Shown here in pieces: positions 4,593 through 19,808 of a stretch of DNA of 19,808 nucleotides. The notes beneath the pieces were generated by a model. That model did not search any database. It saw only the letters and a program-made list of their open reading frames with translations, and was not told where the DNA came from. A program made the translations under genes and the position numbers. The stretch's first letter is position 1; each line of letters starts with the position of its first letter. Location of the stretch: IMG/VR virus record IMGVR_UViG_2617270952_000001. One strand, given 5' to 3'. Source of the DNA: a virus (Duplodnaviria; Heunggongvirae; Uroviricota; Caudoviricetes).

Positions 4593-4605
4593 ATACGGCT
4601 GTCAC

Positions 4606-4938: not shown

Positions 4939-4961
4939 AGATTTCTCCTTTTAAAAAAGCA

Positions 4962-4988: not shown

Positions 4989-5140
4989 ATCGTATTTCTT
5001 GTGTCATTAATTGTTTGATGTTCAGATTGTTTTCCTCGCGGGCTGGCGCGCCTCAGAAAGTAAAGCTTGTTGACAGGGGTAAACGTTCGGCAATAATTTT
5101 CTGCCGCATGCGGGTGTTGCATAAAACGTGTTACGTTCCT

Positions 5141-5446
5141 TTATCGACAGGTCAGGTCACCGCTCACCCGCCGACGAGAAAGCAACACTGACATGCTAAA
5201 GCAAAAAATAGATGAATAAGTTGAGTTGTGCATATGTAGCCTGACCGTCACAAAGTATATGGTGTCTGTACCAGTAAGATGATGGCCGGACTCTTTAAAA
5301 ACGAGCTGACCTGCACAATACAGGATGGACTTAGCAATGGCTGCTCCTGGCACAAAGCGGACAGTGATCACCGTTCTTACGACTACTTTCTGACTTCCTT
5401 CGTGACTTGCCCTAAGCATGTTGTTGTGCGATACTTGTAATGACAT
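5141..5446 (-). CDS. ydfV: hypothetical protein at the position of YdfV (between relB and flxA)
   Basis: 101-codon ORF in the position and with the length I recall for K-12 ydfV. Its ATG (5444-5446) lies inside the relBE operator palindrome; no clear Shine-Dalgarno seen. Confidence 0.5.
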   Translation of the reverse strand: MSLQVSHNNMLRASHEGSQKVVVRTVITVRFVPGAAIAKSILYCAGQLVFKESGHHLTGTDTIYFVTVRLHMHNSTYSSIFCFSMSVLLSRRRVSGDLTCR

Positions 5447-5459
5447 TTGTAATTACAAG
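5434..5459. promoter_or_regulatory. relBE operator (relO) inverted repeat in the relB promoter
   Basis: Palindrome CTTGTAATGACATTTGTAATTACAAG 12 nt upstream of the relB ATG; RelB-RelE autoregulation through such a palindrome is established. Confidence 0.7.
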
Positions 5460-5470
5460 AGGTGTAAGAC

Positions 5471-5710
5471 ATGGGTAGCATTAACCTGCGTATTGACGAT
5501 GAACTTAAAGCGCGTTCTTACGCCGCGCTTGAAAAAATGGGTGTAACTCCTTCTGAAGCGCTTCGTCTCATGCTCGAGTATATCGCTGACAATGAACGCT
5601 TGCCGTTCAAACAGACACTCCTGAGTGATGAAGATGCTGAACTTGTGGAGATAGTGAAAGAACGGCTTCGTAATCCTAAGCCAGTACGTGTGACGCTGGA
5701 TGAACTCTGA
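5471..5710 (+). CDS. relB: RelB antitoxin
   Basis: 79-aa product MGSINLRIDDELKARSYAALEKMGVTPSEALRLMLEYIADNERLPF... matches RelB; stop overlaps the relE start (TGATG). Confidence 0.95.
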   Translation: MGSINLRIDDELKARSYAALEKMGVTPSEALRLMLEYIADNERLPFKQTLLSDEDAELVEIVKERLRNPKPVRVTLDEL

Positions 5711-5997
5711 TGGCGTATTTTCTGGATTTTGACGAGCGGGCACTAAAGGAATGGCGAAAGCTGGGCTCGACGGTACGTGAACAGTTGAAAAAGAAGCTGG
5801 TTGAAGTACTTGAGTCACCCCGGATTGAAGCAAACAAGCTCCGTGGTATGCCTGATTGTTACAAGATTAAGCTCCGGTCTTCAGGCTATCGCCTTGTATA
5901 CCAGGTTATAGACGAGAAAGTTGTCGTTTTCGTGATTTCTGTTGGGAAAAGAGAACGCTCGGAAGTATATAGCGAGGCGGTCAAACGCATTCTCTGA
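5710..5997 (+). CDS. relE: RelE toxin (ribosome-dependent mRNA endonuclease)
   Basis: 95-aa product MAYFLDFDERALKEWRKLGSTVREQLKKKLVEVLESPRIEANKLRGMPDCYKIKLRSSGYRLVYQV... matches RelE. Confidence 0.95.
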   Translation: MAYFLDFDERALKEWRKLGSTVREQLKKKLVEVLESPRIEANKLRGMPDCYKIKLRSSGYRLVYQVIDEKVVVFVISVGKRERSEVYSEAVKRIL

Positions 5998-6068
5998 ACC
6001 AAAGCATGACATCTCTGTTTCGCACCGAAGGTGACACTTCTGCTTTGCGTTGACAGGAGAAGCAGGCT

Positions 6069-6224
6069 ATGAAGCAGCAAAAGGCGATGTTAATCGCCCT
6101 GATCGTCATCTGTTTAACCGTCATAGTGACGGCACTGGTAACGAGGAAAGACCTCTGCGAGGTACGAATCCGAACCGGCCAGACGGAGGTCGCTGTCTTC
6201 ACAGCTTACGAACCTGAGGAGTAA
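6069..6224 (+). CDS. hokD: Hok-family membrane toxin (HokD/RelF), 51 aa
   Basis: ATG at 6069 gives MKQQKAMLIALIVICLTVIVTALVTRKDLCEVRIRTGQTEVAVFTAYEPEE*, the Hok family signature. Below the 60-aa cutoff of the supplied ORF track. Confidence 0.9.
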   Translation: MKQQKAMLIALIVICLTVIVTALVTRKDLCEVRIRTGQTEVAVFTAYEPEE

Positions 6225-6292
6225 GAGACCCGGCGGGGGAGAAATCCCTCGCCACCTCTGATGTGGCAGGCATCCTCAACGCACCCGCACTT

Positions 6293-6319
6293 AACCCGCT
6301 TCGGCGGGGTTTTGTTTTT
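6293..6319 (+). terminator. rho-independent terminator after hokD
   Basis: CCCGC-TTCG-GCGGG hairpin followed by GTTTTGTTTTT. Confidence 0.6.
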
Positions 6320-6440
6320 ATTTTCAACGCGTTTGAAGTTCTGGACGGTGCCGGAATAGAATCAAAAATACTTAAGTAGCGCGCAGGGATAAGAGGGATG
6401 GTCCCTTAAAGGGGAGAGCTAATTATCCGGAAGGATTCTG

Positions 6441-6692
6441 ATGATGAACATCGAAGAACTGCGTAAAATTTTTTGTGAAGATGGCCTCTATGCTGTGTGC
6501 GTTGAAAATGGAAATCTTGTTAGTCATTACCGCATTATGTGTTTGCGAAAGAATGGGGCTGCGTTAATTAATTTTGTGGATGCTCGGGTCACGGACGGAT
6601 TTATCTTGCGCGAAGGTGAGTTTGTCACTTCATTACAGGCATTGAAAGAGATCGGAATAAAAGCTGGCTTTTCTGCTTTTTCAGGAGAATAA
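6441..6692 (+). CDS. rem: Rem (Qin prophage small protein)
   Basis: 83-aa product MMNIEELRKIFCEDGLYAVCVENGNLVSHYRIMCLRKNGAALINFVDARV...; position between hokD and the DUF968 gene as in K-12 Qin. Confidence 0.85.
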   Translation: MMNIEELRKIFCEDGLYAVCVENGNLVSHYRIMCLRKNGAALINFVDARVTDGFILREGEFVTSLQALKEIGIKAGFSAFSGE

Positions 6693-6758
6693 ACTCATCT
6701 ACAATCTTGCGCGGGGCTGAACTCCCGCTGAGTAACACCGTGCCACCGGAGAAAACCG

Positions 6759-7158
6759 ATGGCACGCAACGCAAAATATTACAATTCTGATAATTCGCCC
6801 GTTCTTGCCTGCACGCACGGGCGGTATTCTCACGCATTCAAGTCTGAATGGTTCCAGCACCCTCCATGCACTGCAGAACAGGCCGAATGGCTGATTCATT
6901 CTTACCGCAGGCGCGGGTTCGAGGTTAAGAAAGCTCTCAGTCTCGACTATGCCAGCCGACGATCCGCATCATCTGATTGGTCACGGGCAGGGCGGAATGG
7001 GAACAAAAGCACATGATCTCTTTGTGTTGCCTTTGTGCAGAAAGCATCACAACGAGCTGCATACGGATACAGTGGCATTTGAAGATAAGTATGGCTCCCA
7101 ACTGGAGCTGATATTTCGTTTTATCGATCGCGCGCTGGCAATTGGCGTACTGGCGTAA
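6759..7158 (+). pseudogene. ydfU: DUF968/YdfU-like gene remnant with HNH-like motif, split over two frames by a +1 frameshift
   Basis: ORF 6759-7016 and ORF 6949-7158 overlap in different frames. The second carries HHLIGHGQGGMGTKAHD...CRKHHNELHTD. Total span about 400 nt, which I believe is much shorter than intact ydfU. Confidence 0.45.
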
Positions 7159-7171
7159 GTGGAGAACGAGC

Positions 7172-7924
7172 ATGAACCTTGAAGCCTTACCAAAATATTA
7201 CTCCCCAAAATCTCCAAAATTGAGCGATGACGCTCCAGCGACAGGCACCGGTTGTTTAACAATTACGGATGTAATGGCAGCGCAGGGGATGGTGCAGTCG
7301 AAAGCACCACTTGGGTTGGCCTTATTTCTGGCAAAAGTTGGTGTTCAGGACCCTCAGTTTGCGATTGAAGGCCTGCTAAATTACGCGATGGCACTGGATA
7401 ACCCGACATTGAACAAATTGAGTGAAGAAATCCGGTTACAGATTATTCCTTACCTCGTGAGTTTTGCCTTTGCTGATTACTCCAGGTCTGCGGCAAGTAA
7501 GGCTCGCTGTGAGCATTGTTCAGGTACGGGATTTTATAATGTATTGCGCGAAGTGGTGAAACACTACAGACGCGGGGAATCTGTAATCAAGGAAGAATGG
7601 GTGAAGGAACTATGTCAGCATTGCCATGGTAAGGGCGAAGCCAGCACAGCGTGCAGAGGGTGTAAGGGTAAAGGGATTGTTCTGGATGAAAAAAGAACCC
7701 GGTTTCATGGCGTACCGGTATATAAGATTTGTGGGCGTTGTAATGGAAACCGGTTTAGTCGTTTACCGACCACGCTGGCACGACGTCATGTCCAGAAGCT
7801 GGTACCAGACCTGACCGATTATCAGTGGTATAAGGGGTATGCGGACGTCATTGGTAAACTGGTAACAAAGTGCTGGCAGGAAGAAGCATACGCGGAAGCG
7901 CAATTGAGGAAGGTGACGAGATAA
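7172..7924 (+). CDS. quuQ: Q-family late-gene antiterminator
   Basis: 250-aa product from MNLEALPKYY... with the cysteine cluster CEHCSGTGF...CQHCHGKGE...CRGCKGKG...CGRCNGN (zinc-binding motifs of phage-82-type Q). GGAGA lies 7 nt before the ATG at 7172. Confidence 0.9.
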   Translation: MNLEALPKYYSPKSPKLSDDAPATGTGCLTITDVMAAQGMVQSKAPLGLALFLAKVGVQDPQFAIEGLLNYAMALDNPTLNKLSEEIRLQIIPYLVSFAFADYSRSAASKARCEHCSGTGFYNVLREVVKHYRRGESVIKEEWVKELCQHCHGKGEASTACRGCKGKGIVLDEKRTRFHGVPVYKICGRCNGNRFSRLPTTLARRHVQKLVPDLTDYQWYKGYADVIGKLVTKCWQEEAYAEAQLRKVTR

Positions 7925-7955
7925 ATGATTTTTGCTGAAGATGGCGACATGATGT

Positions 7956-7984
7956 TTGCATTTTTCAAAAAATATGGATAAAAT
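7956..7984 (+). promoter_or_regulatory. putative late promoter (pR'-like) downstream of Q
   Basis: TTGCAT-N17-TAAAAT, about 30 nt after the quuQ stop and about 45 nt before a strong terminator; this layout is typical of lambdoid pR'/qut/tR'. Confidence 0.45.
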
Positions 7985-8030
7985 TTTTTCAACGATGGGC
8001 TTTGTATACCCGACGTTAAGAAAAAGTAGA

Positions 8031-8060
8031 AAACCCGCTGATGAGCGGGTTTTGTGCTTT
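8031..8060 (+). terminator. rho-independent terminator (candidate tR') after the late promoter
   Basis: CCCGCT-GATG-AGCGGG hairpin followed by TTTTGTGCTTT. Confidence 0.6.
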
Positions 8061-8345
8061 AAATGGGGCAATGGTAATGTTGAATCTCATCCCGGGACTC
8101 ATGTCTGTTAACTTATTATTTAGCTGGTGACTTGGTTATTTGCCTGATGTTTAAAATGTTTTCTTCCAGTACAATGTCCCTAAACACAATGAGTCTGCTT
8201 ATTATATTATTAGCAGAGCTATTACGGCCAAAGTACAGCATAAGCTTTTAAAGCCAATCAACCAGTCATCAAGACAGACGGGGTTATTCATAAAAACTCT
8301 CCATGTGTGATCCGATGGGGCCTGAAATTAAAGCTTTAATATAGC

Positions 8346-8558
8346 TCATGAAAGGTAAACATTGGCAGCTGAAGGGCCACGCAGACCATTTATCCGGCAA
8401 AATTCCACGCGTAATCCGGTGGTAATTTCTTCTGCATCGCGGAGATTGAGCGCTGAAACATGAAGCTGGACATCGATACGACCATCGGATGGGGTGATAA
8501 GACCCTTGCCGCTTTTGCCGTCAAAGGTTTTGACAATTCCTGTCATTTTACGGGACAA
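8346..8558 (-). CDS. cspF: cold-shock protein CspF (CspA family)
   Basis: 70-aa product [70 protein letters not shown]. Confidence 0.9.
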
Positions 8559-8858
8559 AAAAATTCCTTAATACTGATAACTTGGCGCACTATACACACG
8601 TTCCTGAAGAAAGCTATAGTTTTTTGATGGGGTTGAAGATGGCTGGATGTCTAAAATAAACATTGCTTCATATGTTCAACTATGCGTTAATGATTGCGTC
8701 GGTTTGAAGAACAGACGATATACGAAGTAGTTTACTAAAGCAGTTCTCATTTCAGGTGTTATTCACTTATTCCTTCTTTGAGTCTCTCCAATTAAGTACG
8801 AAGTCGTTTCTGTTATGCAAACCATTTATGCCGAAAGGCTCAAGTTAAGGAATGTAGA

Positions 8859-9074
8859 ATGTCAAATAAAATGACTGGTTTAGTAAAATGGTTTAACGCT
8901 GATAAAGGTTTCGGCTTTATTTCTCCTGTTGATGGTAGTAAAGATGTGTTTGTGCATTTTTCTGCGATTCAGAATGATAATTATCGAACCTTATTTGAAG
9001 GTCAAAAGGTTACCTTCTCTATAGAGAGTGGTGCTAAAGGTCCTGCAGCAGCAAATGTCATCATTACTGATTAA
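8859..9074 (+). CDS. cspB: cold-shock protein CspB (CspA family)
   Basis: 71-aa product [71 protein letters not shown]; about 300-nt leader typical of cold-shock genes. Confidence 0.95.
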
Positions 9075-9355
9075 AATTCATCGCTCGTCTGTATACGATA
9101 ACGAAGAAGGCTGATGCCTGAGTAGAGATACGGACAGAGTAGTGAATATTGGATCTCTTTAATAAAAAGTAAGGAGGTCCAATACATGAAACAATGGCTA
9201 GCATATTTGGCAAAATCTTAATCAGGAAAAGTATGCTAACCATTGTGGTGAAGTGCAGGTTTGCTGCATGAATAGTTTTACAGCAGAAGCTAACTGCTGG
9301 CATGGCAAAACAAAGTGCGTAAGTGGATGACTCCCACAAAAAGCACCACAATCTC

Positions 9356-9379
9356 AAACCCGCTCAGGCGGGTTTTTTA
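9356..9379 (+). terminator. rho-independent terminator downstream of cspB (possibly bidirectional)
   Basis: AAACCCGC-TCAG-GCGGG followed by TTTTTT; an A-run precedes it, so it may also terminate the convergent minus-strand gene. Confidence 0.6.
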
Positions 9380-9437
9380 TTATCTGCTTTAAATATATTA
9401 TTAAAATATAAAAAATACTTGTTACTAATAAAATCAA

Positions 9438-9608
9438 TCAGGCTACAGCTTTAAGATTTGTCTGGAATACTTTGTTGCAATGAGGGCAGATCAAAAGGGC
9501 ACCTTTTTGTACTCTTGAAAAACTGTGTTCTGACTCTTGGGTGCAGTTTGGGCAGGAACATTTAACGAGATAATTACGGCGTGATTTTGAGTTTTTACGT
9601 TCTGACAT
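9438..9608 (-). CDS. ynfU: small zinc-ribbon protein (56 aa; two Cys pairs CSCPNC and CPHC)
   Basis: ATG-initiated product MSERKNSKSRRNYLVKCSCPNCTQESEHSFSRVQKGALLICPHCNKVFQTNLKAVA. Gene name is from uncertain memory of a Qin small zinc-binding protein. Confidence 0.5.
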   Translation of the reverse strand: MSERKNSKSRRNYLVKCSCPNCTQESEHSFSRVQKGALLICPHCNKVFQTNLKAVA

Positions 9609-9827
9609 AGGCTTTTCCTGTATAAATGGCCGTATACAGTACACTAAATATGAAAACATTTCTCGTATTATTATTTTATATATGACTTTCTTTCAAAATA
9701 ATTACCCACATTTTTAATGTGTATGTTTTTTTAGCGCCGTTGAGAACAACGTGTGCTGTCAAAACTACCCCGTAGACTCCGATCTTTTCAAACATATTGC
9801 ACCATCCGTGTACATCGGGGTGAGGAT

Positions 9828-10043
9828 ATGAAATCAATGGATAAGTTAACAACAGGTGTTGCCTATGGCACATCGGCGGGTAATGCTGGTTTCTGGGCAT
9901 TGCAGTTACTCGATAAAGTAACTCCGTCACAGTGGGCTGCAATCGGTGTGCTGGGTAGCCTGGTTTTTGGCCTGCTGACGTATCTGACAAATCTTTATTT
10001 CAAGATTAAAGAAGACAGGCGTAAGGCTGCGAGAGGAGAGTAA
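9828..10043 (+). CDS. essQ: class II holin, phage-21 S-type, with dual start (Met1 and Met4)
   Basis: 71-aa product [71 protein letters not shown]; GGTGAGGA precedes the ATG. Confidence 0.9.
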
Positions 10044-10047
10044 TCCA

Positions 10048-10355
10048 ATGACTCAAGACTATGAACTGGTTGTGAAAGGAGTCCGTAATTTTGAGAATAA
10101 AGTTACGGTAACTGTAGCCTTACAGGACAAAGAACGCTTTGACGGTGAAATTTTTGACCTGGATGTCGCCATGGACCGTGTTGAAGGAGCTGCGCTGGAG
10201 TTTTATGAGGCAGCAGCCAGAAGGAGCGTCCGGCAAGTCTTCCTGGAAGTAGCAGAAAAATTGTCAGAAAAAGTTGAGTCTTATCTGCAGCATCAGTACT
10301 CCTTTAAGATTGAAAATCCTGCCAATAAGCACGAGCGTCCTCATCATAAATATCT

Positions 10356-10359
<4 letters not shown>
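10048..10359 (+). CDS. ydfR: YdfR (small protein between holin and endolysin)
   Basis: 103-aa ORF in the position and length of K-12 ydfR; stop overlaps the endolysin start (ATGA). Confidence 0.8.
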
Positions 10360-11383
<1,024 letters not shown>

Positions 11384-11745
11384 GGTAATATTAAATCGGA
11401 ACATTTACATCGCGGAATGTAAAATTTAAATAAAAAGGACTCTTCCATGAGCCAAAATTCCTGAAATCTTAAGGGTAAGATAAAAGGTCTTAATCAGAAT
11501 GACACGTTTTATTAATAAATAAAGCTATTCTTTCATTGCTGTGTTTTTCTTTACAAAAGTAATCCTTGCTATGGGTGGTTAATCATGCGTTAATGGTGTT
11601 CTGGTTTGTTACAAATTTATCTGAAGCAGTCATTGTTATAATTTTATTATTTGTACCTCTTGAGATTTCCTTGTTGGTTTTTCTCTCTGATATTTTTTTT
11701 CGGACCATTCTGCCCAAGGGCTAATTTCTTCAAAAGGTAATAATT

Positions 11746-11958
11746 ATGTCTAACAAAATGACTGGTTTAGTGAAATGGTTTAACCCTGAAAAAGGTTTTG
11801 GTTTCATCACGCCGAAAGATGGCAGCAAAGATGTGTTTGTCCATTTCTCAGCAATTCAGAGCAACGATTTCAAAACATTAACTGAGAATCAGGAAGTTGA
11901 ATTTGGTATTGAGAACGGACCTAAAGGTCCTGCCGCTGTTCATGTAGTGGCGCTTTGA
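11746..11958 (+). CDS. cspI: cold-shock protein CspI (CspA family)
   Basis: 70-aa product [70 protein letters not shown]; long AT-rich leader. Confidence 0.95.
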
Positions 11959-12162
11959 GGTAGACAATATTACAAACCATATTCACTTTAGATGCCCGTG
12001 TTGTCATGGTTCCCAGTATAGAACATCATCTTTTGATGTTTCTGACATGAATCCTTTCGGGGCAAAATGTATCTTTTGTAAATCAATGATGATTACATTT
12101 GATAATATTTCACAATACTTAAATGCCAGCCGTCTGTCGTTGGATTTAAAAAAGTGAAAATG

Positions 12163-12186
12163 AAGGCTCCTTCGGGAGCTTTTTTG
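12163..12186 (+). terminator. rho-independent terminator
   Basis: GGCTCC-TTCG-GGAGC hairpin followed by TTTTTTG. Confidence 0.5.
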
Positions 12187-12229
12187 CTTGGTGTCTATTC
12201 GATGGATACTCACATACTACGGTAACATC

Positions 12230-12460
12230 ATGAAAAAAATCATAGTTTTTTTTAACTCTGAACCAGCAGTGGTAGTGCCAGCGATGACTGGAGTTAACAC
12301 CATCATGCGTGAATATCCAAATGGCGAAAAAACACACCTTACTGTAATGGCCGCAGGGTTTCCATCTCTGACCGGAGATCATAAAGTCATTTATGTAGCC
12401 GCGGATCGACATGTTACTTCAGAAGAAATTCTGGAAGCAGCAATAAGGCTCTTGAGTTGA
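12230..12460 (+). CDS. hypothetical protein, 76 aa, no family assigned
   Basis: ATG-initiated ORF MKKIIVFFNSEPAVVVPAMTGVNTIMREYPNGEKTHLTVMAAGFPSLTGDHKVIYVAADRHVTSEEILEAAIRLLS with protein-like composition; weak ribosome-binding site; sits just after a terminator. Confidence 0.3.
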   Translation: MKKIIVFFNSEPAVVVPAMTGVNTIMREYPNGEKTHLTVMAAGFPSLTGDHKVIYVAADRHVTSEEILEAAIRLLS

Positions 12461-12628
12461 TTTGATGCTATTGCATTGATAATTCAGGAAAATTCTCTTT
12501 GTCTGTTTGTGTAAAATTTAGACTATCGTATGTTGATTATTGCGATGTTTCATCTTATCTTTTACACGTTTGCACCATATAATCGACTTACTGTGTAACT
12601 GGAAAGTCATAACAGACTAAAAGAGGAA

Positions 12629-12805
12629 ATGATGAATATTGAAAACTTAAAAACAAAAGCAGAAGCAGATATTTCTGAATATATAACAAAAAAAATTATT
12701 GAACTTAAGAAAAAGACCGGGAAAGAAGTTACCAGTATTCAGTTTACCGCACGGGAAAAAATGACGGGTCTTGAAAGCTATGATGTCAAGATTAATTTAA
12801 TCTGA
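12629..12805 (+). CDS. gnsB: GnsA/GnsB-family small protein
   Basis: 58-codon product MMNIENLKTKAEADISEYITKKIIELKKKTGKEVTSIQFTAREKMTGLESYDVKINLI; AAGAGGAAA precedes the ATG. Below the supplied ORF track cutoff. Confidence 0.85.
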   Translation: MMNIENLKTKAEADISEYITKKIIELKKKTGKEVTSIQFTAREKMTGLESYDVKINLI

Positions 12806-12956
12806 TGTATTCAATAATAAAATTTATCCATAAACCTCGTTTTTACGGGGTTTTGTTATATTTGAATGGTTCCGAATATCTAAATCACAATTGTTGATGG
12901 TTTTTATTAAACCAATGCAGTCCGGCTCAGGAGTGAGAGAAGCCGGACGTTATGGT

Positions 12957-13367
12957 TTAGCGTGGTAAGATCTGTGTAGTTTTCTGGATGCTTTCAGTAA
13001 ATAGTAATGAATTATCAAAGGTATAGTAATATCTTTTTTGTTCGTGGATATTTGTAACCCACCGAAAAACTCCTGCTTTAGCAAGGTTTCTTCTGTATTC
13101 CTGAAATGTGATCTCTCTGGATTTCAGCTTATTAGAGGTCGTTTCTATAAGATGCCTATCCTTTGAAAATTTGACAGACACAATGTTTTTTAGGCCCTTT
13201 AATAACACTGTATTATCATTTTTTAATACAATATGAACATTCTCTGTGGCTAAATAGTAAATGTAATGTGAGACATTGTGACGTTTTAGCTCAGAATAAA
13301 ACCATTGATAGTTTAAATCGTTTCGAACTTTATCAAATATTTGTTTAAAAATGACTACCTGATCCAT
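12957..13367 (-). CDS. ydfO: YdfO (DUF1398-type prophage protein)
   Basis: 136-aa product [60 protein letters not shown]... matches my recollection of YdfO and a lambda right-arm ORF. Confidence 0.85.
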
Positions 13368-13424
13368 AGATAAACCTTCCATGTGATATGAGGGGGCGTA
13401 GTCTGCACGATTATCTAAATTGCT

Positions 13425-13658
13425 TCAATCTGGTCTGACCTGTTTTCTGAGCAATTCAGTAATGTCACTCTTTTCTTTGTTTGCTTCAGAAGAAACTCTT
13501 TTTTCTGAGCACAGTCTCCGGCGGCAGGCTTCAATGACCCAGGCTGAGAAATTCCCGGACCCTTTTTGCTCAAGAGCGATGTTAATTTGTTCAATCATTT
13601 GGTTAGGAAAGCGGATGTTGCGGGTTGTTGTTCTGCGGGTTCTGTTCTTCGTTGACAT
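13425..13658 (-). CDS. ynfO: YnfO, small basic protein (possible ribbon-helix-helix fold)
   Basis: 77-aa product MSTKNRTRRTTTRNIRFPNQMIEQINIALEQKGSGNFSAWVIEACRRRL...; matches an ORF I recall near the lambda right end. Confidence 0.8.
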   Translation of the reverse strand: MSTKNRTRRTTTRNIRFPNQMIEQINIALEQKGSGNFSAWVIEACRRRLCSEKRVSSEANKEKSDITELLRKQVRPD

Positions 13659-13824
13659 GAGGTTGCCCCGTATTCAGTGTCGCTGATTTGTATTGTCTGA
13701 AGTTGTTTTTACGTTAAGTTGATGCAGATCAATTAATACGATACCTGCGTCATAATTGATTATTTGACGTGGTTTGATGGCCTCCACGCACGTTGTGATA
13801 TGTAGATGATAATCATTATCACTT

Positions 13825-14040
13825 TACGGGTCCTTTCCGGTGATCCGACAGGTTACGGGGCGGCGACCTCGCGGGTTTTCGCTATTTATGAAAATTTTCC
13901 GGTTTAAGGTGTTTCCGTTCTTCTTCGTCGTAACTTAATGTTTTTATTTAAAATACCCCCTGAAAAGAAAGGAAACGACAGGTGCTGAAAGCGGGCTTTT
14001 TGGCCTTTGTCGTTTCCTTTCTCTGTTTTTGTCCGTGGAA
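13825..14040. other. cos site (cosQ, cosN with the 12-nt cohesive-end sequence GGGCGGCGACCT at 13858-13869, cosB) of a lambda-like packaging system
   Basis: Sequence ...GATCCGACAGGTTACG|GGGCGGCGACCTCGCGGGTTTTCGCTATTTATGAAAATTTTCCGG... is nearly identical to the lambda genome ends as I recall them, directly upstream of Nu1. Confidence 0.85.
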
Positions 14041-14046
14041 TGAACA

Positions 14047-14592
14047 ATGGAAGTCAACAAAAAGCAGCTGGCTGACATTTTCGGTGCGAGTATCCGTACC
14101 ATTCAGAACTGGCAGGAACAGGGAATGCCCGTTCTGCGAGGCGGTGGCAAGGGTAATGAGGTGCTTTATGATTCTGCCGCCGTCATAAAATGGTATGCCG
14201 AAAGGGATGCTGAAATTGAGAACGAAAAGCTGCGCCGGGAAGTTGAAGAACTGCGGCAGGCCAGCGAGACAGATCTCCAGCCAGGGACTATTGAGTACGA
14301 ACGCCATCGACTTACGCGTGCGCAGGCCGACGCACAGGAGCTGAAAAATGCCAGAGACTCCGCTGAAGTGGTGGAAACCGCATTCTGTACTTTCGTGCTG
14401 TCGCGGATCGCAGGTGAAATTGCCAGTATTCTCGACGGGATCCCCCTGTCGGTGCAGCGGCGTTTTCCGGAACTGGAAAACCGACATGTTGATTTCCTGA
14501 AACGGGATATCATCAAAGCCATGAACAAAGCAGCCGCGCTGGATGAACTGATACCGGGGTTGCTGAGTGAATATATCGAACAGTCAGGTTAA
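14047..14592 (+). CDS. nohA: terminase small subunit (lambda Nu1 homologue)
   Basis: 181-aa product MEVNKKQLADIFGASIRTIQNWQEQGMPVLRGGGKGNEVLYDSAAVIKWYAERDAEIENEKLRREVEELRQ..., essentially lambda Nu1 with a winged-HTH N-terminus. Confidence 0.95.
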   Translation: MEVNKKQLADIFGASIRTIQNWQEQGMPVLRGGGKGNEVLYDSAAVIKWYAERDAEIENEKLRREVEELRQASETDLQPGTIEYERHRLTRAQADAQELKNARDSAEVVETAFCTFVLSRIAGEIASILDGIPLSVQRRFPELENRHVDFLKRDIIKAMNKAAALDELIPGLLSEYIEQSG

Positions 14593-15703
14593 CAGGCTGC
14601 GGCATTTTGTCCGCGCCGGGCTTCGCTCACTGTTCAGGCCGGAGCCACAGACCGCCGTTGAATGGGCGGATGCCAATTACTATCTCCCGAAAGAATCCGC
14701 ATACCAGGAAGGGCGCTGGGAAACACTGCCCTTTCAGCGGGCCATCATGAATGCGATGGGCAGCGACTACATCCGCGAGGTGAATGTGGTGAAGTCTGCC
14801 CGTGTTGGTTATTCCAAAATGCTGTTGGGTGTTTATGCCTACTTCATAGAGCATAAGCAGCGCAACACACTTATCTGGTTGCCGACGGATGGTGATGCCG
14901 AGAACTTTATGAAAACCCACGTTGAGCCGACCATCCGTGATATTCCTTCGCTGCTGGCGCTGGCCCCGTGGTATGGCAAAAAGCACCGGGATAACACGCT
15001 CACCATGAAGCGTTTCACCAATGGGCGTGGCTTCTGGTGCCTGGGCGGTAAAGCGGCAAAAAACTACCGTGAAAAGTCAGTGGATGTGGCGGGGTATGAT
15101 GAACTTGCTGCCTTTGATGAGGATATTGAACAGGAAGGCTCTCCGACGTTCCTGGGCGATAAGCGTATTGAAGGCTCTGTCTGGCCAAAATCCATCCGTG
15201 GCTCCACGCCCAAAGTGAGAGGCACCTGCCAGATTGAGCGTGCAGCCAGTGAATCCCCGCATTTTATGCGTTTTCATGTTGCCTGCCCGCACTGCGGGAA
15301 GGAGCAGTACCTTAAATTTGGCGACAAAGAGACGCCGTTTGGCCTCAAATGGATGCCGGATGATCCCTCCAGCGTGTTTTATCTCTGTGAGCATAATGCC
15401 TGCGTCATCCGTCAGCAGGAGCTGGACTTTACTGATGCCCGTTATATCTGCGAAAAGACCGGGATCTGGACCCGTGATGGCATTCTCTGGTTTTCGTCAT
15501 CCGGTGAAGAGATTGAACCGCCTGACAGTGTGACCTTTCACATCTGGACGGCGTACAGCCCGTTCACCACCTGGGTGCAGATTGTCAAAGACTGGATGAA
15601 GACGAAAGGGGATACTCCGTGTTTGAGCAGTCACTGTTGCGGTATATCGCTGCCGGGCTGGGTGTCTCGTATGAGCAGCTTTCCCGGAATTACGCCCAGA
15701 TGA
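14567..15703 (+). pseudogene. terminase large subunit (lambda A homologue), N-terminal 350 codons only, joined out of frame to portal-gene sequence
   Basis: MNISNSQVNRLRHFVRAGLRSLFRPEPQTAVEWADANYYLPKE... follows lambda gpA through ...VQIVKDWMKTKGDT (to about 15616). The next 28 codons are portal-gene DNA read in the wrong frame, ending at the stop at 15701-15703. Confidence 0.85.
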
Positions 15704-16164
15704 GCTACTCCACGGCACGGGCCAGCGCGAACGAGTCGTGGGCGCACTTTATGGGGCGGCGAAAATTCGTCGCATCCCGTCAGGCGAGCCAGATGTTTCT
15801 GTGCTGGCTGGAAGAGGCCATCGTTCGCCGCGTGGTGACGTTACCTTCAAAAGCGCGCTTCAGCTTTCAGGAAGCCCGCAGCGCCTGGGGGAACTGTGAC
15901 TGGATAGGCTCCGGTCGTATGGCTATCGATGGTCTGAAAGAAGTACAGGAAGCGGTGATGCTGATAGAAGCCGGACTGAGCACCTACGAGAAAGAGTGCG
16001 CAAAACGCGGCGACGACTATCAGGAAATTTTTGCCCAGCAGGTCCGTGAAACGATGGAGCGCCGCGAAGCCGGTCTTAAACCGCCCGCCTGGGCGGCAGC
16101 GGCATTTGAATCCGGGCTGCGACAATCAACAGAGGAGGAGAAGAGTGACAGCAGAGCTGCGTAA
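15617..16164 (+). pseudogene. portal protein (lambda B homologue), C-terminal 181 codons only
   Basis: ...FEQSLLRYIAAGLGVSYEQLSRNYAQMSYSTARASANESWA...EEEKSDSRAA* matches the C-terminus of lambda gpB. No ATG or ribosome-binding site at the fragment start; the frame differs from the A fragment. Confidence 0.8.
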
Positions 16165-17464
16165 TCTCCCGCATATTGCCAGCATGGCCTTTAATGAGCC
16201 GCTGATGCTTGAACCCGCCTATGCGCGGGTTTTCTTTTGTGCGCTTGCAGGCCAGCTTGGGATCAGCCGCCTGACGGATGCAGTATCCGGCGACAGCCTG
16301 ACTGCCGGAGAGGCACCCGCGGCGCTGGCGTTATCCGGTGATGATGACGGACCACGACAGGCCCGCAGTTATCAGGTCATGAACGGCATCGCCGTGCTGC
16401 CGGTGTCCGGTACGCTGGTCAGCCGGACGCGGGCGCTGCAGCCGTATTCGGGAATGACCGGTTACAACGGCATTATCGCCCGTCTGCAACAGGCTGCCAG
16501 CGATCCGATGGTGGACGGCATTCTGCTGGATATGGACACACCGGGCGGGATGGTGGCGGGAGCATTTGACTGTGCTGACATCATCGCCCGTGTGCGAGAC
16601 ATAAAACCGGTATGGGCGCTGGCCAACGACATGAACTGCAGTGCAGGTCAGCTGCTTGCCAGCGCCGCCTCCCGGCGTCTGGTCACGCAGACCGCCCGGA
16701 CAGGCTCCATCGGCGTCATGATGGCTCACAGTAATTACGGTGCTGCGCTGGAGAAACAGGGCGTGGAAATCACGCTGATTTACAGCGGCAGCCATAAGGT
16801 GGATGGCAACCCCTACAGCCATCTACCGGATGAGGTCCGGGAAACACTGCAGTCCCGGATGGATGCAACCCGCCGGATGTTTGCACAGAAGGTGTCGGCA
16901 TATACCGGCCTGTCCGTGCAGGCTGTGCTGGATACCGAGGCTGCAGTGTACAGCGGTCAGGAGGCCATTGATGCCGGACTGGCTGATGAACTTGTGAACA
17001 GTACCGATGCGATCACCGTCATGCGTGATGCACTGGATGCACGTAAATCCCGTCTCTCAGGAGGGCGAATGACCAAAGAGACTCAATCAACAACTGTTTC
17101 AGCCACTGCTTCGCAGGCTGACGTTACTGGCGTGGTGCAAGCGACGGAGGGCGAGAACGCCAGCGCTGCGCAGCCGGACGTGAACGCGCAGATCACCGCA
17201 GCGGTTGCGGCAGAAAACAGTCGCATTATGGGGATCCTCAACTGTGAGGAGGCTCACGGACGCGAAGAACAGGCATGCGTGCTGGCCGAAACCCCCGGTA
17301 TGACCGTGGAAACGGCCCGCCGTATTCTGGCCGCAGCACCACAGAGTGCACAGGCGCGCAGTGACACTGCGCTGGATCGTCTGATGCAGGGGGCACCGGC
17401 ACCGCTGGCTGCAGGTAACCCGGCATCTGATGCCGTTAACGATTTGCTGAACACACCAGTGTAA
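16145..17464 (+). CDS. head maturation protease / minor capsid protein (lambda C homologue), GTG start
   Basis: 439-aa product from GTG at 16145 (TAELRNLPHIASMAFNEPLMLEPAYARVFFCALAGQLGIS...) matches lambda gpC; start overlaps the end of the B fragment. Confidence 0.9.
   Translation: MTAELRNLPHIASMAFNEPLMLEPAYARVFFCALAGQLGISRLTDAVSGDSLTAGEAPAALALSGDDDGPRQARSYQVMNGIAVLPVSGTLVSRTRALQPYSGMTGYNGIIARLQQAASDPMVDGILLDMDTPGGMVAGAFDCADIIARVRDIKPVWALANDMNCSAGQLLASAASRRLVTQTARTGSIGVMMAHSNYGAALEKQGVEITLIYSGSHKVDGNPYSHLPDEVRETLQSRMDATRRMFAQKVSAYTGLSVQAVLDTEAAVYSGQEAIDAGLADELVNSTDAITVMRDALDARKSRLSGGRMTKETQSTTVSATASQADVTGVVQATEGENASAAQPDVNAQITAAVAAENSRIMGILNCEEAHGREEQACVLAETPGMTVETARRILAAAPQSAQARSDTALDRLMQGAPAPLAAGNPASDAVNDLLNTPV
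16859..17464 (+). CDS. scaffolding protein Nu3 homologue, nested in frame in the 3' part of C
   Basis: In-frame internal ATG at 16859 (MDATRRMFAQKV...) at the position corresponding to the lambda nu3 start as I recall it. Confidence 0.55.
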   Translation: MDATRRMFAQKVSAYTGLSVQAVLDTEAAVYSGQEAIDAGLADELVNSTDAITVMRDALDARKSRLSGGRMTKETQSTTVSATASQADVTGVVQATEGENASAAQPDVNAQITAAVAAENSRIMGILNCEEAHGREEQACVLAETPGMTVETARRILAAAPQSAQARSDTALDRLMQGAPAPLAAGNPASDAVNDLLNTPV

Positions 17465-17473
17465 GGGATGTTT

Positions 17474-17806
17474 ATGACGAGCAAAGAAACCTTTACCCAT
17501 TACCAGCCGCTGGGCAACAGTGACCCGGCTCATACCGCAACCGCGCCCGGCGGATTGAGTGCGAAAGCGCCTGCAATGACCCCGCTGATGCCGGACACCT
17601 CCACCCGTAAGCTGGTTGCGTGGGATGGCACCACCGACGGTGCTGCCGTTGGCATTCTTGCGGTTGCTGCTGACCAGACCAGCACCACACTGACGTTCTA
17701 CAAGTCCGGCACGTTCCGTTATGAGGATGTGCTCTGGCCGGAGGCTGCCAGCGACGAGACGAAAAAACGGACCGCGTTTGCCGGAACGGCAATCAGCATC
17801 GTTTAA
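17474..17806 (+). CDS. head decoration protein (lambda D homologue)
   Basis: 110-aa product [68 protein letters not shown]...; AAGGGA 6 nt before the ATG. Confidence 0.9.
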
Positions 17807-17826
17807 CCTGACCCTTCATCACTAAA

Positions 17827-17848
17827 GGCCGCCTGTGCGGCTTTTTTT
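17827..17848 (+). terminator. terminator-like hairpin with T7 run between D and E
   Basis: GGCCGCC-TGT-GCGGC followed by TTTTTTT, 14 nt before the E start codon; may attenuate or structure the D-E junction rather than fully terminate. Confidence 0.4.
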
Positions 17849-17861
17849 ACGGGATTTTTTT

Positions 17862-19715
17862 ATGTCGATGTACACAACCGCCCAGCTGCTGGCGGCAAAT
17901 GAGCAGAAATTTAAGTTTGATCCGCTGTTTCTGCGTCTCTTTTTCCGTGAGAGCTATCCCTTCACTACGGAGAAAGTCTATCTCTCACAAATTCCGGGAC
18001 TGGTAAACATGGCGCTGTACGTTTCGCCGATTGTTTCCGGTGAGGTTATCCGTTCCCGTGGCGGCTCCACCTCTGAATTTACGCCGGGATATGTCAAACC
18101 CAAGCATGAGGTGAATCCGCAGATGACCCTGCGTCGCCTGCCGGATGAAGATCCGCAGAATCTGGCGGACCCGGCTTACCGCCGCCGTCGCATCATCATG
18201 CAGAACATGCGTGACGAAGAGCTGGCCATTGCTCAGGTCGAAGAGATGCAGGCAGTTTCTGCCGTGCTCAAGGGCAAATACACCATGACCGGTGAAGCCT
18301 TCGATCCGGTTGAGGTGGATACCGGAGCTTTGTGGAAGCGTACAGCCGTCGGATTAACGAATTTCGCCTGGATCAACACATCCGGCGATACATATGATAT
18401 TTACGTTGAGATTGGCAATTATGCGACGAGTGTAAATATCCATTGGGATTGTACTACAAATGCGTCAGTTTCTATTTATACCTCGCCAACATATTCAGCG
18501 AGTAAGCCTTCCAGCGTTACCGGTGGTGTTGTTTATACGATGTATAGCTCACATCAGAAACCTACACCATCAGATATTGGAGCGCTGCCAACGACTGGAG
18601 GGACTATTTCAGGTCCGTTGTCTGTTACTGATGGGATCACCGGGGCACTGAAGGGGAACGCCGATACCGCGACGAAACTTGCGGCAGCCCCAAAAATTAA
18701 CGGTGTTAAGTTTGATGGCTCGGCGGATATTAACCTCACGCCGGAAAATATTGGTGCATTTGCCCGACGTTCGACGGGGGCTTATGCGGATTCGGATGGA
18801 GCCGTTCCCTGGAATGCCGAATCAGGCGCTTACAATGTCACCCGCTCTGGCAACAGCTATATTCTGGTTAACTTCTATACCGGAGTCGGAAGTTGCCGGA
18901 CCTTGCAGATGAAGGCACATTACAGAAATGGAGGTCTGTTCTACCGTTCCTCAAGAGATGGCTATGGTTTTGAGGAAGACTGGGCAGAAGTTTATACCTC
19001 GAAAAATCTTCCACCAGAAAGCTACCCAGTCGGCGCACCAATCCCGTGGCCATCAGATACCGTTCCGTCTGGTTATGCCCTGATGCAGGGGCAGACTTTT
19101 GACAAATCTGCTTACCCGAAACTTGCAGCCGCTTATCCGTCAGGTGTGATCCCTGATATGCGTGGCTGGACGATTAAGGGCAAACCTGCCAGTGGTCGGG
19201 CCGTATTGTCTCAGGAACAGGACGGCATTAAATCGCACACCCACAGCGCCAGCGTATCCAGTACGGATTTGGGGACGAAAAACACATCGTCGTTTGATTA
19301 CGGAACCAAATCCACGAATAACACCGGGGCGCATACCCATAGTATTAGCGGGACTGCAAATAGTGCCGGTGCGCACCAACACAAGAGTTCCGGTGCATTT
19401 GGTGGCACGAACACGAGCATTTTCCCTAATGGTTATACCGCGATTTCAAATCTAAGCGCGGGGATTATGAGCACAACAAGCGGTAGTGGCCAGACTCGTA
19501 ATGCAGGGAAGACATCATCAGATGGTGCTCATACCCACTCGCTGTCCGGCACTGCTGCAAGCGCAGGCGCACACGCACATACTGTCGGTATTGGTGCTCA
19601 TACGCACTCCGTTGCGATTGGTTCACATGGACATACCATCACCGTTAACGCTGCTGGTAACGCGGAAAACACCGTCAAAAACATCGCATTTAACTATATT
19701 GTGAGGCTTGCGTAA
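17862..19715 (+). CDS. chimeric ORF: major capsid protein E N-terminal 153 codons fused in frame to a side-tail-fibre (Stf) C-terminal region of 464 codons
   Basis: [34 protein letters not shown]... follows lambda gpE to ...[10 protein letters not shown] (about 18320). The frame then continues into tail-fibre-like sequence with GAHTHS-type His repeats ending ...[11 protein letters not shown]. Confidence 0.85.
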
Positions 19716-19808
19716 TGGCATTCAGAATGAGTGAACAACCACGGACCATAAAAATTTATAATCTGCTGGCCGGAACTAATGAATTTATTGGTGAAGGTGA
19801 CGCATATA
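19715..19808 (+). CDS. tail fibre assembly protein (Tfa), N-terminal 31 codons (3' end outside window)
   Basis: ATG overlapping the stf stop (TAATG) gives [31 protein letters not shown]..., the N-terminus of lambda-type Tfa. Confidence 0.8.

What the first reader, a model, noticed from the sequence alone, without database searches (positions are those of the whole stretch)
17862..19715. In-frame chimera of capsid protein E N-terminus and side-tail-fibre C-terminal domain
The first 153 codons follow lambda gpE; the next 464 codons are tail-fibre sequence, in frame, with a normal start, the natural E ribosome-binding region and a coupled tfa gene downstream. A deletion from within E to within stf removed the rest of E and the whole tail module yet left an expressible fusion. 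If made, the protein would carry a receptor-binding tip on a capsid-derived N-terminus, with its assembly chaperone still encoded.
Basis: partly seen in the sequence, partly recalled or inferred. Interest (0 to 1): 0.5.

Follow-up and report, generated by a model that had tools for sequence, protein, structure and literature searches.

The report
Capsid–tail-fibre fusion from prophage decay
A 14.8-kb deletion in a decaying lambda-like prophage of E. coli joined the first 153 codons of the capsid gene E in frame to the last 464 codons of the side-tail-fibre gene; this is a real but ordinary decay scar of a kind that recurs (E. coli K-12 stfQ is one), and nothing shows that it is made or used.

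Summary
Window 17862-19715 is one 617-codon ORF. Codons 1-153 match lambda gpE at 153 of 153 residues. Codons 154-617 match residues 589-1052 of an intact 1052-aa Stf, with one amino-acid difference. The join is at 18320/18321 on a 2-nt TA microhomology, and tfa starts on the stop codon (TAATG).

The window is a whole draft contig (E. coli 3-105-05_S3_C2). The identical junction is in 5 of 5,426 complete E. coli genomes, which form one clone, so it is not an assembly artefact.

It is best read as a deletion scar:
- The prophage carries at least four other internal deletions.
- Only 45% of the capsid fold and none of the fibre's tail-attachment domain survive.
- A terminator-shaped hairpin precedes the start codon, so expression needs Q.
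- Independent E'-'stf junctions in other strains are out of frame.

In-frame head::Stf chimeras recur elsewhere. K-12 StfQ is gpA codons 1-3 fused to Stf. An A(1-350)::Stf ORF is in 62 genomes.

Blocking of phage adsorption is untested, although StfE2 is a published precedent.

One thing is unexplained: deletion junctions in these remnants are strongly biased to TA microhomology and reuse the same end points.

The parts
17862..19715 (+). Chimeric ORF, 617 codons plus stop. GenBank KDT31377.1 and KDT43764.1 call it from the upstream GTG at 17835 as 626 aa, named 'phage major capsid E family protein'.
17824..17852 (+). Native lambda D-E intergenic hairpin (9-bp stem, 4-nt loop) followed by a U7 run. 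It has the shape of an intrinsic terminator and ends about 10 nt before the ATG. The GTG at 17835 lies inside it.
   Evidence: -14.5 kcal/mol; hairpin identical to lambda; annotated as 'terminator' in phage 434 and HK629 records
17862..18321 (+). E' segment: lambda gpE codons 1-153, matching lambda 6135-6594. It covers Pfam Phage_cap_E profile positions 1-147 of 329.
18320..18321 (.). Deletion junction: the dinucleotide TA is shared by both parents (E ...GGTGGATA|TGG; stf ...GGAATTA|CCGG).
18322..19712 (+). 'stf segment: codons 154-617, equal to Stf residues 589-1052 of a 1052-aa side tail fibre. It starts inside a shaft domain and lacks the N-terminal tail-attachment domain PF08400.
19017..19712 (+). 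Complete distal tip (residues 386-617) homologous to the T4 gp37 collar-needle-head fragment, with the His-x-His repeats. The Pfam Collar domain covers residues 391-438.
19715..19808 (+). tfa (tail fibre assembly chaperone): the first 31 codons, with a start that overlaps the fusion's stop. The gene is cut by the end of the contig.
   Evidence: complete 193-aa gene in IAL7255
14047..17806 (+). Rest of the decayed head operon upstream. It comprises nu1/nohA (14047-14592), A' (14567-15703) joined out of frame to 'B at 15610-15615 (lambda 1759|3883), C (16145-17464) and D (17474-17806).
7172..11383 (+). Late-operon control and lysis genes on the same strand: the Q-type antiterminator (ends 7924), holin, ydfR, lysozyme and Rz-like genes (9753-11383). 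+ strand terminator-like hairpins lie at 9356-9375 and, just beyond this range, at 12832-12853.

Best explanation
The ORF is a deletion scar in a decaying lambdoid prophage.

Shown:
- One illegitimate recombination event between E nt 460 and stf nt 1764, at a 2-nt TA microhomology, removed about 14.8 kb (the rest of E, the head-completion genes, the whole tail module, lom and the 5' 56% of stf).
- It left E codons 1-153 fused to stf codons 589-1052 in front of tfa.
- The same prophage carries several other internal deletions.

Inferred:
- The frame is open by chance.
- The gene is silent unless Q-modified RNA polymerase reads through the late operon.
- If translated, the product (about 66 kDa) would be a non-native N-terminal fragment of the HK97-type capsid fold joined to a truncated fibre shaft and a complete gp37-type tip. 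The tip could trimerise with Tfa, but the protein could not attach to any tail and has no export signal.

The only role with experimental backing for this kind of remnant is at the DNA level: a stock of stf-tip/tfa sequence that infecting lambdoid phages can pick up by homologous recombination.
For: Both parents were mapped base by base.

Multiple decay events are present in the same element. Relative to an intact relative it lacks the exo-to-replication block including dicA/dicB, it lacks ydfU, and its A'|'B junction is out of frame.

Sister alleles with the identical E'-'stf junction carry further nested deletions in nu1-A-C (IAL7255, BS74R-D). This shows ongoing erosion.

The carriers are rare and clonal. 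Five of 5,426 complete genomes carry the junction. The two lineages compared (BS74R-D and IAL7255) are 99.98-100% identical over 40 kb including chromosomal flanks. One protein cluster on 2 contigs among about 15 billion proteins spans both halves. Metagenome and GTDB-representative scans found nothing.

Other E'-'stf junctions are out of frame (VE-T2, P377). In-frame deletion chimeras arise repeatedly as by-products:
- Nu1::C, 452 aa.
- A(1-350)::Stf, 601 aa, in 62 genomes.
- Nu1::Lom, 244 aa.
- K-12 StfQ, which is gpA codons 1-3 fused to Stf.

Only 147 of 329 capsid-profile positions are present, no PF08400 attachment domain is found, and the tip is complete.

A terminator-shaped hairpin lies in front of the ATG, and no promoter-like site lies between D and the ATG.

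Lambda recombines with the stf-tfa region of K-12 Qin at about 2e-6 (PMC3945230).
Against: Nothing contradicts the reading, but absence of function is not shown.
- The ORF is intact in all carriers. With zero substitutions among them this says nothing about selection.
- The tip and its chaperone gene are complete, and an intact Q gene and lysis cassette lie upstream, so production on induction is possible.
- Three of the six head|stf junctions seen are in frame (J1, K-12 StfQ, WP3 type). This is above one third but far from significant.
- A published case (StfE2) shows that a cryptic-prophage Stf fragment can matter to the cell.
Confidence: 0.78

Rival explanations
1. Adsorption blocker or decoy. 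The fusion and Tfa are made when the late operon is switched on by its own Q or by the Q of an infecting lambdoid phage. They are released by the remnant's lysis cassette and occupy the receptor recognised by the gp37-type tip, which protects sister cells from phages that use that receptor.
For: The receptor-binding tip is complete, with strong homology to T4 gp37, and tfa is coupled. Q, holin, lysozyme and Rz-like ORFs upstream are open. As a precedent, the cryptic-prophage fragment StfE2 reduced T2 adsorption to 3-12% when produced from a plasmid (PMC12529663).
Against: There are no expression data. The protein has no signal peptide or export route other than lysis. The N-terminus is a misfold-prone fragment and the first fibre domain is cut. 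The fusion is confined to one clone plus two sister isolates. Independent E'-'stf remnants are out of frame, yet their stf 3' ends are just as open and show mostly synonymous differences (P377 versus intact stf: 6 synonymous, 0 nonsynonymous). An open, conserved-looking tip is therefore not evidence of use.
Confidence: 0.08
2. Sequence-directed deletion. This rival concerns the origin of the fusion and is compatible with the best explanation on function. The junction was not made by random illegitimate recombination. It was made by a process that prefers TA-centred sites of the form G-R-T-A / T-A-Y-C-C and reuses particular end points, so head::stf joins are a favoured outcome of lambdoid prophage decay.
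For: In a discovery set of 14 junctions, 11 have TA inside the microhomology. Random junctions with 2-4 nt of microhomology give 2-4%. A later test set of remnants from other strains gave TA in 5 of the 7 junctions with at least 2 nt of microhomology (p about 3e-6).

End points are reused:
- Lambda 6594 (E nt 460) is joined to two different stf sites (window, P377).
- stf site y is joined to E (P377) and to gpA nt 9 (K-12 Qin).
- Lambda 1759/60 is joined to B (window) and to stf (WP3).
- Lambda 697 has four different partners.

The E' alleles of the window and P377 differ at 7 sites, 6 of them silent. This suggests they diverged as working genes before truncation.
Against: No enzyme fits. The Pin invertase sites of e14 have an AA/TT centre and the opposite half-site polarity. 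The papers read on gyrase and Rpn gave no matching specificity. The sample is small, was partly assembled after the pattern was seen, and junctions sharing an end are not independent. Gene conversion by passing phages could explain the silent differences. Several junctions have 6-10 nt repeats and are classical short-repeat deletions, and lambda nin5 is a 10-nt repeat without TA.
Confidence: 0.3
3. Assembly or annotation artefact: the contig joins reads from separate E and stf loci.
For: The window is a short-read draft contig that ends in repeated tfa sequence. The sister assembly breaks at window 13522.
Against: The identical junction with 3.58 kb of flanking identity is present in five complete genomes from two countries.
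Confidence: 0.01
4. Capsid-assembly poison: the gpE 1-153 fragment co-assembles with the capsid protein of an infecting lambda-like phage and spoils head assembly.
For: The N-terminal part of gpE is 100% identical to lambda gpE.
Against: Only 45% of the fold is present. Nothing here indicates dominant-negative activity, and the expression problems are the same as for the blocker model.
Confidence: 0.02

Closest known systems
E. coli K-12 Qin stfQ (b1547) with tfaQ and pinQ
   Same: It sits in the same prophage family at the same place in the late operon. A head-gene start (gpA GTG plus 3 codons, lambda 711-719) is fused in frame to a stf 3' end with the same gp37-type tip, and tfa follows directly. 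The junction also has a TA microhomology.
   Different: The K-12 deletion starts earlier, in A rather than E, so it keeps no C, D or E'. It retains 317 stf-derived residues from a different stf allele and site. It is widespread, whereas the E::Stf allele is confined to one clone plus two draft isolates.
A(1-350)::Stf chimera WP_049254577.1 of Qin (strain WP3-S18-ESBL-07 and 61 other complete genomes)
   Same: It is an independent in-frame fusion of a lambda head-module gene to the Stf tip, followed by tfaQ. It was created by an internal deletion at a TA-containing microhomology (GGGATACG).
   Different: The 5' partner is terminase gpA, only 251 Stf residues are retained, and RefSeq annotates it as a normal 'terminase large subunit'. 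Its gpA end point (lambda 1760) is the same as that of the window's A'|'B deletion.
StfE2 of cryptic prophage e14 (Kirigo et al., NAR 2025, PMC12529663)
   Same: It is a chimeric Stf fragment encoded by a cryptic prophage.
   Different: StfE2 is created reversibly by Pin-mediated inversion at pix sites, not by deletion. It is a small Stf::Stf chimera with a gp53-like domain and no capsid part. Its effect was measured, whereas nothing is measured for the E::Stf ORF.
YmfN of e14 (b1149), annotated 'chimeric replication protein/phage terminase'
   Same: It is a textbook K-12 example of an open chimeric ORF left by an internal prophage deletion.
   Different: The fused genes are different, and its junction was not analysed here.
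T4 gp37 distal tip (PDB 2XGF) and lambda Stf/Tfa
   Same: Residues 386-617 align over the whole crystallised fragment, including the His-x-His repeats and the C-terminal [10 protein letters not shown]. The last 231 residues are 68% identical to lambda orf-314, and a Tfa-type chaperone gene follows.
   Different: The central head region of the tip has insertions relative to gp37, so the receptor may differ. The fibre's proximal half is missing.

Membership tests
Lambda gpE / HK97-fold major capsid protein (Pfam PF03864) | Complete capsid fold of about 330-340 residues able to form capsomers | tested here: not met
   Only profile positions 1-147 of 329 are present, and the alignment to the lambda gpE structures ends at the junction.
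Lambda gpE / HK97-fold major capsid protein (Pfam PF03864) | Sequence homology of the N-terminal part to gpE | tested here: met
   153/153 residues are identical to lambda gpE; PF03864 E = 1e-25.
Lambdoid side tail fibre Stf | N-terminal tail-attachment domain (PF08400, 'prophage tail fiber N-terminal domain') | tested here: not met
   It is absent from the Pfam scan of the fusion and present in the full-length 1052-aa relatives. The fusion starts at Stf residue 589.
Lambdoid side tail fibre Stf | C-terminal gp37-type collar/needle/head tip with His-x-His repeats | tested here: met
   2XGF match E = 4e-83 over residues 386-617; Collar PF07484 E = 4e-12.
Lambdoid side tail fibre Stf | Cognate tfa chaperone gene immediately downstream | tested here: met
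   TAATG overlap, with 31/31 codons identical to lambda Tfa inside the window. The complete 193-aa gene is present in identical loci.
Head-gene::stf deletion chimeras of cryptic lambdoid prophages (K-12 stfQ type) | 5' end and start codon of a lambda head-module gene joined by internal deletion to the stf 3' end, followed by tfa, downstream of nohA/nohD | tested here: met
   The window's structure compared with K-12 Qin and WP3.
Receptor-blocking Stf fragments (StfE2 type) | Production of the protein reduces adsorption of a phage | not testable with these tools
   This needs expression and adsorption assays. Only the precedent was read.
Receptor-blocking Stf fragments (StfE2 type) | Generated and controlled by Pin-type inversion at pix sites | tested here: not met
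   The junction has a TA centre and no AAACC-NN-GGTTT site. The pix sites of e14 read AAACC TT GGTTT.
Capsid-forming phage satellites (cf-PICI-like) | Complete own head module (terminase, portal, protease, capsid) without tail genes | tested here: not met
   A, B and E are all truncated by deletions.

The most novel reading that the evidence does not exclude
The E::Stf join is one product of an unrecognised, sequence-directed route of lambdoid prophage decay. Under this reading, deletions in these remnants preferentially cross over at TA inside G-R-T-A / T-A-Y-C-C-like sites and reuse a handful of end points (lambda 697, 1759, 6594; stf site y). As a result, head-gene starts are repeatedly placed in front of the stf tip and tfa, as in K-12 stfQ, the 62-genome A::Stf ORF and this E::Stf ORF. 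If such a process exists, and if the resulting tip proteins are used as adsorption blockers as reported for StfE2, these 'scars' would be a recurrent way of domesticating receptor-binding proteins.
Probability: 0.2. Interest if true: 0.6.

Novelty: new member of a known kind. Interest (0 to 1): 0.25.

Why it matters
In itself it matters little. It is one more open chimeric reading frame left by prophage erosion, present in one E. coli clone, and databases already hold it under misleading names ('major capsid E family protein', or two pseudogenes).

It is useful in three ways:
- It is a warning for annotation. In-frame deletion chimeras are named after one parent. Examples seen here are 'terminase small subunit' of 452 aa, 'terminase large subunit' of 601 aa and 'Ail/Lom' of 244 aa.
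- It is a natural construct for testing whether a gp37-type tip with Tfa folds and binds cells when hung on an unrelated N-terminus.
- It is an entry point to the unexplained TA bias and end-point reuse of deletion junctions in lambdoid remnants. If that bias is general, it would say something new about how prophages are dismantled.

Tried and rejected
- Assembly artefact: rejected, because the junction is in five complete genomes.
- Selection test on the fusion: impossible, because the carriers are 100% identical across the ORF. As a control, stf 3' ends of out-of-frame remnants are equally open and differ from intact genes mostly at silent sites, so openness is uninformative.
- Search for the junction 32-mer in metagenome contigs and in GTDB species representatives: no hit.
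- Exact look-up of the 617-aa ATG form: not on record. Only the 626-aa GTG form is.
- Protein search for other capsid+fibre chimeras: only the query's own cluster spans both halves among the 120 best of 8000 hits. Weaker chimeras could be hidden.
- Pin invertase quasi-site recombination as the cause of the junction: rejected, because the pix centre is AA/TT and the half-sites are AAACC/GGTTT.
- Gyrase-mediated and Rpn-mediated recombination: the papers read gave no sequence preference that could be matched to TA.
- A common origin of the window and P377 junctions by descent: not resolved. The chromosomal flanks differ by 1.3% and the E' differences are 6 of 7 silent, which fits either independent events or later conversion.
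- Lambda laboratory deletions as an outside test: nin5 is a 10-nt repeat without TA, and the DE3 b-region deletion is an EcoRI construct.
- Structure prediction: not run. Only near-identical homologues were available for an alignment, and a trimeric fibre tip modelled as a monomer would not be informative.
Full report
**What is there**

The ORF list shows a single open frame from 17835 (GTG) or 17862 (ATG) to the TAA at 19713-19715. Local BLAST against lambda J02459 aligns three window segments:
- Window 13858-15615 aligns to lambda 1-1759.
- Window 15610-18321 aligns to lambda 3883-6594, without gaps.
- After 18321 the match to lambda stops.

Lambda E begins at 6135, so the window carries E nt 1-460. 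The 153 encoded residues are identical to lambda gpE, and the six nucleotide differences are all silent.

From 18320 onward the sequence matches the 3' part of a 3159-nt stf gene in E. coli MS15047, starting at stf nt 1765, with 2 differences in 1395 nt. At the protein level, residues 154-617 equal Stf 589-1052 at 99.8% identity. Both parents share only the dinucleotide TA at the join (E ...GGTGGATA|TGG, stf ...GGAATTA|CCGG), so this is a microhomology join, and it is in frame. The stop overlaps the tfa start (TAATG). The 31 tfa codons before the window ends are those of lambda Tfa.

**Where it comes from, and whether it is real**

An exact-sequence look-up finds the 626-aa GTG form as KDT31377.1 and KDT43764.1, named 'phage major capsid E family protein', from E. 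coli 3-105-05_S3_C2 and _C1. The longest carrying contig is 19,808 bp, so the window is that whole draft contig, JNMB01000053.1.

The junction is not an assembly error. Window 16228-19808 is 100% identical to the chromosome of IAL7255, and the junction query (window 17400-19808) is 100% identical in all five complete genomes: BS74R-D from Switzerland and IAL7250, IAL7252, IAL7254 and IAL7255 from Brazil. In those genomes PGAP annotates two adjacent pseudogenes. BS74R-D and IAL7255 are 99.98-100% identical over 40 kb including chromosomal flanks, so they belong to one clone.

The junction 32-mer was not found in the metagenome collection or in the GTDB species representatives. Among the best hits of a search of 5.8 billion protein clusters, only the query's own cluster covers both halves. 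The allele is therefore real but rare: 5 of 5,426 complete genomes plus two sister isolates.

**Context**

The window is a Qin-type prophage carrying relBE, hokD, rem, a Q-type antiterminator, cspB/F, holin-ydfR-lysozyme-Rz, cspI, gnsB, ydfO and ynfO, followed by cos, nu1, A', 'B, C, D, E'-'stf and tfa.

Compared with a more complete relative (PCP06021), it has lost:
- the exo-to-replication block, including dicA and dicB;
- ydfU;
- lambda 1760-3882, giving an A'|'B junction that is out of frame with a stop after 28 foreign codons;
- the E-to-stf interval.

On the lambda map the last deletion removes 6595-19649 plus 1764 nt of stf, about 14.8 kb.

In the complete genomes the same E'-'stf-tfa segment sits in a DLP12-type remnant at the lambda attachment site, between ybhC and ybhB. 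There it carries larger, nested deletions upstream:
- IAL7255 has A'|'C, out of frame.
- BS74R-D has Nu1'|'C, in frame, giving 452 aa annotated as 'terminase small subunit'.

The head genes are thus still being eroded, while D, E'-'stf and tfa have not yet been touched. The sister draft assembly breaks at window 13522, which is where the Qin-type and DLP12-type backbones diverge. The linkage of the fusion to the Qin-type left arm therefore rests on one short-read assembly.

**What the protein would be**

Pfam finds Phage_cap_E over residues 5-155, matching profile positions 1-147 of 329. It also finds Collar (391-438) and weak fibre-repeat and gp37_C matches. It finds no PF08400 tail-attachment domain, which the full-length relatives have.

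Against solved structures:
- Residues 1-153 match lambda gpE.
- Residues 296-391 match the Mu fibre.
- Residues 386-617 match the whole crystallised T4 gp37 tip (2XGF, E = 4e-83). The collar, the His-x-His needle repeats and the C-terminus are conserved, and there are insertions in the head region.

The stf breakpoint falls inside a shaft domain (...ELVLRAGNGNPKGIT|[10 protein letters not shown]...).

From this I infer three things. The N-terminal 153 residues cannot adopt the capsid fold. The first retained fibre domain is incomplete. The distal tip could fold and trimerise with Tfa, but the protein cannot dock on a tail and has no export signal.

**Could it be expressed?**

The D-E intergenic region is the native lambda one. 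It includes a 9-bp hairpin followed by U7 (-14.5 kcal/mol) that ends about 10 nt before the ATG. The GTG used by GenBank lies inside this hairpin. No promoter-like site lies between D and the ATG. Further + strand terminator-like hairpins lie between the Q gene and nu1.

As in lambda, transcription therefore requires Q-modified polymerase. The immunity and early region that would drive Q is deleted in this element. Q, holin, lysozyme and Rz-like ORFs are open, so expression after supply of a matching Q is conceivable but not shown.

**Is the open frame meaningful?**

The chance of an in-frame join is one in three.

Other E'-'stf remnants exist and are out of frame:
- VE-T2 and VE-T10 (E nt 722 joined to stf).
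- P377 (E nt 460 joined to another stf allele).

In-frame chimeras also arise elsewhere:
- Nu1::C in BS74R-D.
- Nu1::Lom, 244 aa, in M18.
- A(1-350)::Stf, 601 aa, in WP3-S18-ESBL-07 and 61 other complete genomes, annotated as 'terminase large subunit'.
- K-12 StfQ itself, which begins with the gpA start codon and three gpA codons (VNI) fused to Stf.
- K-12 e14 also carries an annotated chimeric replication/terminase ORF, YmfN.

Selection cannot be tested on the E::Stf ORF because all copies are identical. As a control, I compared the last 750 nt of stf in eight loci. All are open, including those behind out-of-frame junctions. P377 differs from an intact stf at 6 silent and 0 replacement codons. 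Openness and silent-site bias therefore reflect recent descent from, or conversion by, working phage genes, not use of the remnant.

**Mechanism and rivals**

The best-supported reading (confidence about 0.78) is a deletion scar that is open by chance, silent without Q, and without a demonstrated protein function. Its documented kind of usefulness is as DNA: lambda acquires sequence from the stf-tfa region of K-12 Qin and Rac at about 2e-6 per phage (PMC3945230).

StfE2 of e14, created by Pin inversion, lowered T2 adsorption to 3-12% when produced from a plasmid (PMC12529663). That case differs in origin, size and domain content, and it offers no route by which a cytoplasmic protein reaches the receptor. 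I put this rival at about 0.08. A capsid-poison role is less likely still.

**An unexpected regularity**

While placing other junctions as controls, I found that they are not random.

In a first set of 14 distinct internal deletion junctions (from the window, IAL7255, BS74R-D, VE-T2, P377, K-12 Qin and K-12 DLP12), 11 have TA inside the microhomology (TA, TAC, TAT, TTA, CTA). Simulated junctions with 2-4 nt of microhomology in lambda or in a Qin-type prophage contain TA in 2-4% of cases.

I then fetched ten further remnants chosen only by where their match to the lambda head region ends. Among the 7 new junctions with at least 2 nt of microhomology, 5 contain TA (p about 3e-6). The sites lean to G-R-T-A on the left and T-A-(N)-C-C on the right. 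About 13 of 27 distinct TA sites are GATA or GGTA, against a background of 19-23%.

End points are reused:
- E nt 460 is joined to two different stf sites (window and P377).
- One stf site (GGGTA|ACC) is joined both to E (P377) and to gpA nt 9 (K-12 Qin).
- Lambda 1759/60 is joined to B (window) and to stf (WP3).
- Lambda 697 is joined to C, J, lom and a fibre-like sequence.

The E' alleles of the window and P377 differ at seven sites, six of them silent. This argues against simple neutral descent from one truncated ancestor, although conversion by passing phages could also produce it.

The pix sites of e14 have an AA/TT centre and AAACC/GGTTT arms, so Pin does not fit. The papers read on gyrase and Rpn gave no matching preference. 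Lambda nin5 is a plain 10-nt repeat without TA.

I cannot name the mechanism. The sample is small and partly chosen after the pattern was seen. I report this as an unexplained lead, not as a result.

**Comparison with what is known, and verdict**

The ORF fails the membership tests for a capsid protein (fold incomplete) and for a functional side tail fibre (no attachment domain). It meets those for the fibre tip plus chaperone. It fits fully the informal class of head-gene::stf deletion chimeras, of which K-12 stfQ is the reference example.

It is a new member of a known kind, already deposited under misleading names. I score interest at 0.25. A specialist would not be surprised by the fusion. 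The TA bias and the reuse of end points are the only parts that might repay further work.

Noticed in passing
window 18320-18321, 15610-15615, 587-596, 6948-6950; loci L001-L003, L009, L011, L012, L018-L024: Internal deletion junctions of lambdoid prophage remnants are strongly biased to TA-containing microhomology: 11 of 14 in the first set and 5 of 7 in a later test set, against a random expectation of 2-4%. The flanks lean to G-R-T-A / T-A-(N)-C-C. No enzyme identified so far fits.
   Followed up: partly
L009 4914-4930 (P377); L011 reverse strand (K-12 Qin nohA|stfQ); L018 4252-4259; L021-L023 near 3184-3200: Deletion end points are reused with different partners. E nt 460 (lambda 6594) has two partners. 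stf site GGGTA|ACC has two partners, including the K-12 stfQ junction. Lambda 1759/60 has two partners. Lambda 697 has four partners.
   Followed up: partly
L018 3210-5015 (WP3-S18-ESBL-07) and 61 other complete genomes: An in-frame gpA(1-350)::Stf(251 aa) chimera followed by tfaQ and pinQ is annotated in RefSeq as an ordinary 'phage terminase large subunit family protein' (WP_049254577.1).
   Followed up: partly
L001 18707-20065 (BS74R-D); L023 2678-3412 (M18): There are further in-frame deletion chimeras named after one parent: Nu1::C (452 aa, 'terminase small subunit') and Nu1::Lom (244 aa, 'Ail/Lom family').
   Followed up: yes
L011 (K-12 MG1655 1634885-1636367): K-12 StfQ starts with the gpA GTG start and three gpA codons (VNI) fused in frame to the Stf C-terminus. 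Its start overlaps the extended end of nohA, so the reference stfQ gene is itself a head::fibre deletion chimera.
   Followed up: yes
L015 8878-11011 (DS26-1); L016 6169-8496 (J-8): In two strains the lambda-like head operon is cut, inside E at lambda 6379 or inside B at lambda 3670. It is followed at once by a tyrosine integrase, an HTH regulator and other genes. This looks like another integrative element sitting inside prophage head genes.
   Followed up: no
window 13496-13522; L008: Left of about 13496 the window is Qin-type, whereas the complete genomes with the identical fusion have a DLP12-type remnant at att-lambda. The sister draft assembly breaks at 13522, so the contig's linkage across this point is unverified.
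   Followed up: partly
window 17835-17861: The GTG start used for the deposited 626-aa protein lies inside the D-E terminator-like hairpin. The native E start is the ATG at 17862.
   Followed up: yes
window 18311-18331 and 18626-18646 (fusion residues about 151-157 and 256-262): The Stf part contains two paralogous G-I-T-G-A-L motifs. The window junction lies at the first. The P377 and K-12 junctions lie at the position of another stf allele that corresponds to the second.
   Followed up: partly
window 2856-4169: There is an intact 437-aa ISNCY/IS1202-type transposase ORF inside the prophage. The relative PCP06021 has only a truncated copy, with an IS1203 inserted downstream of it.
   Followed up: no
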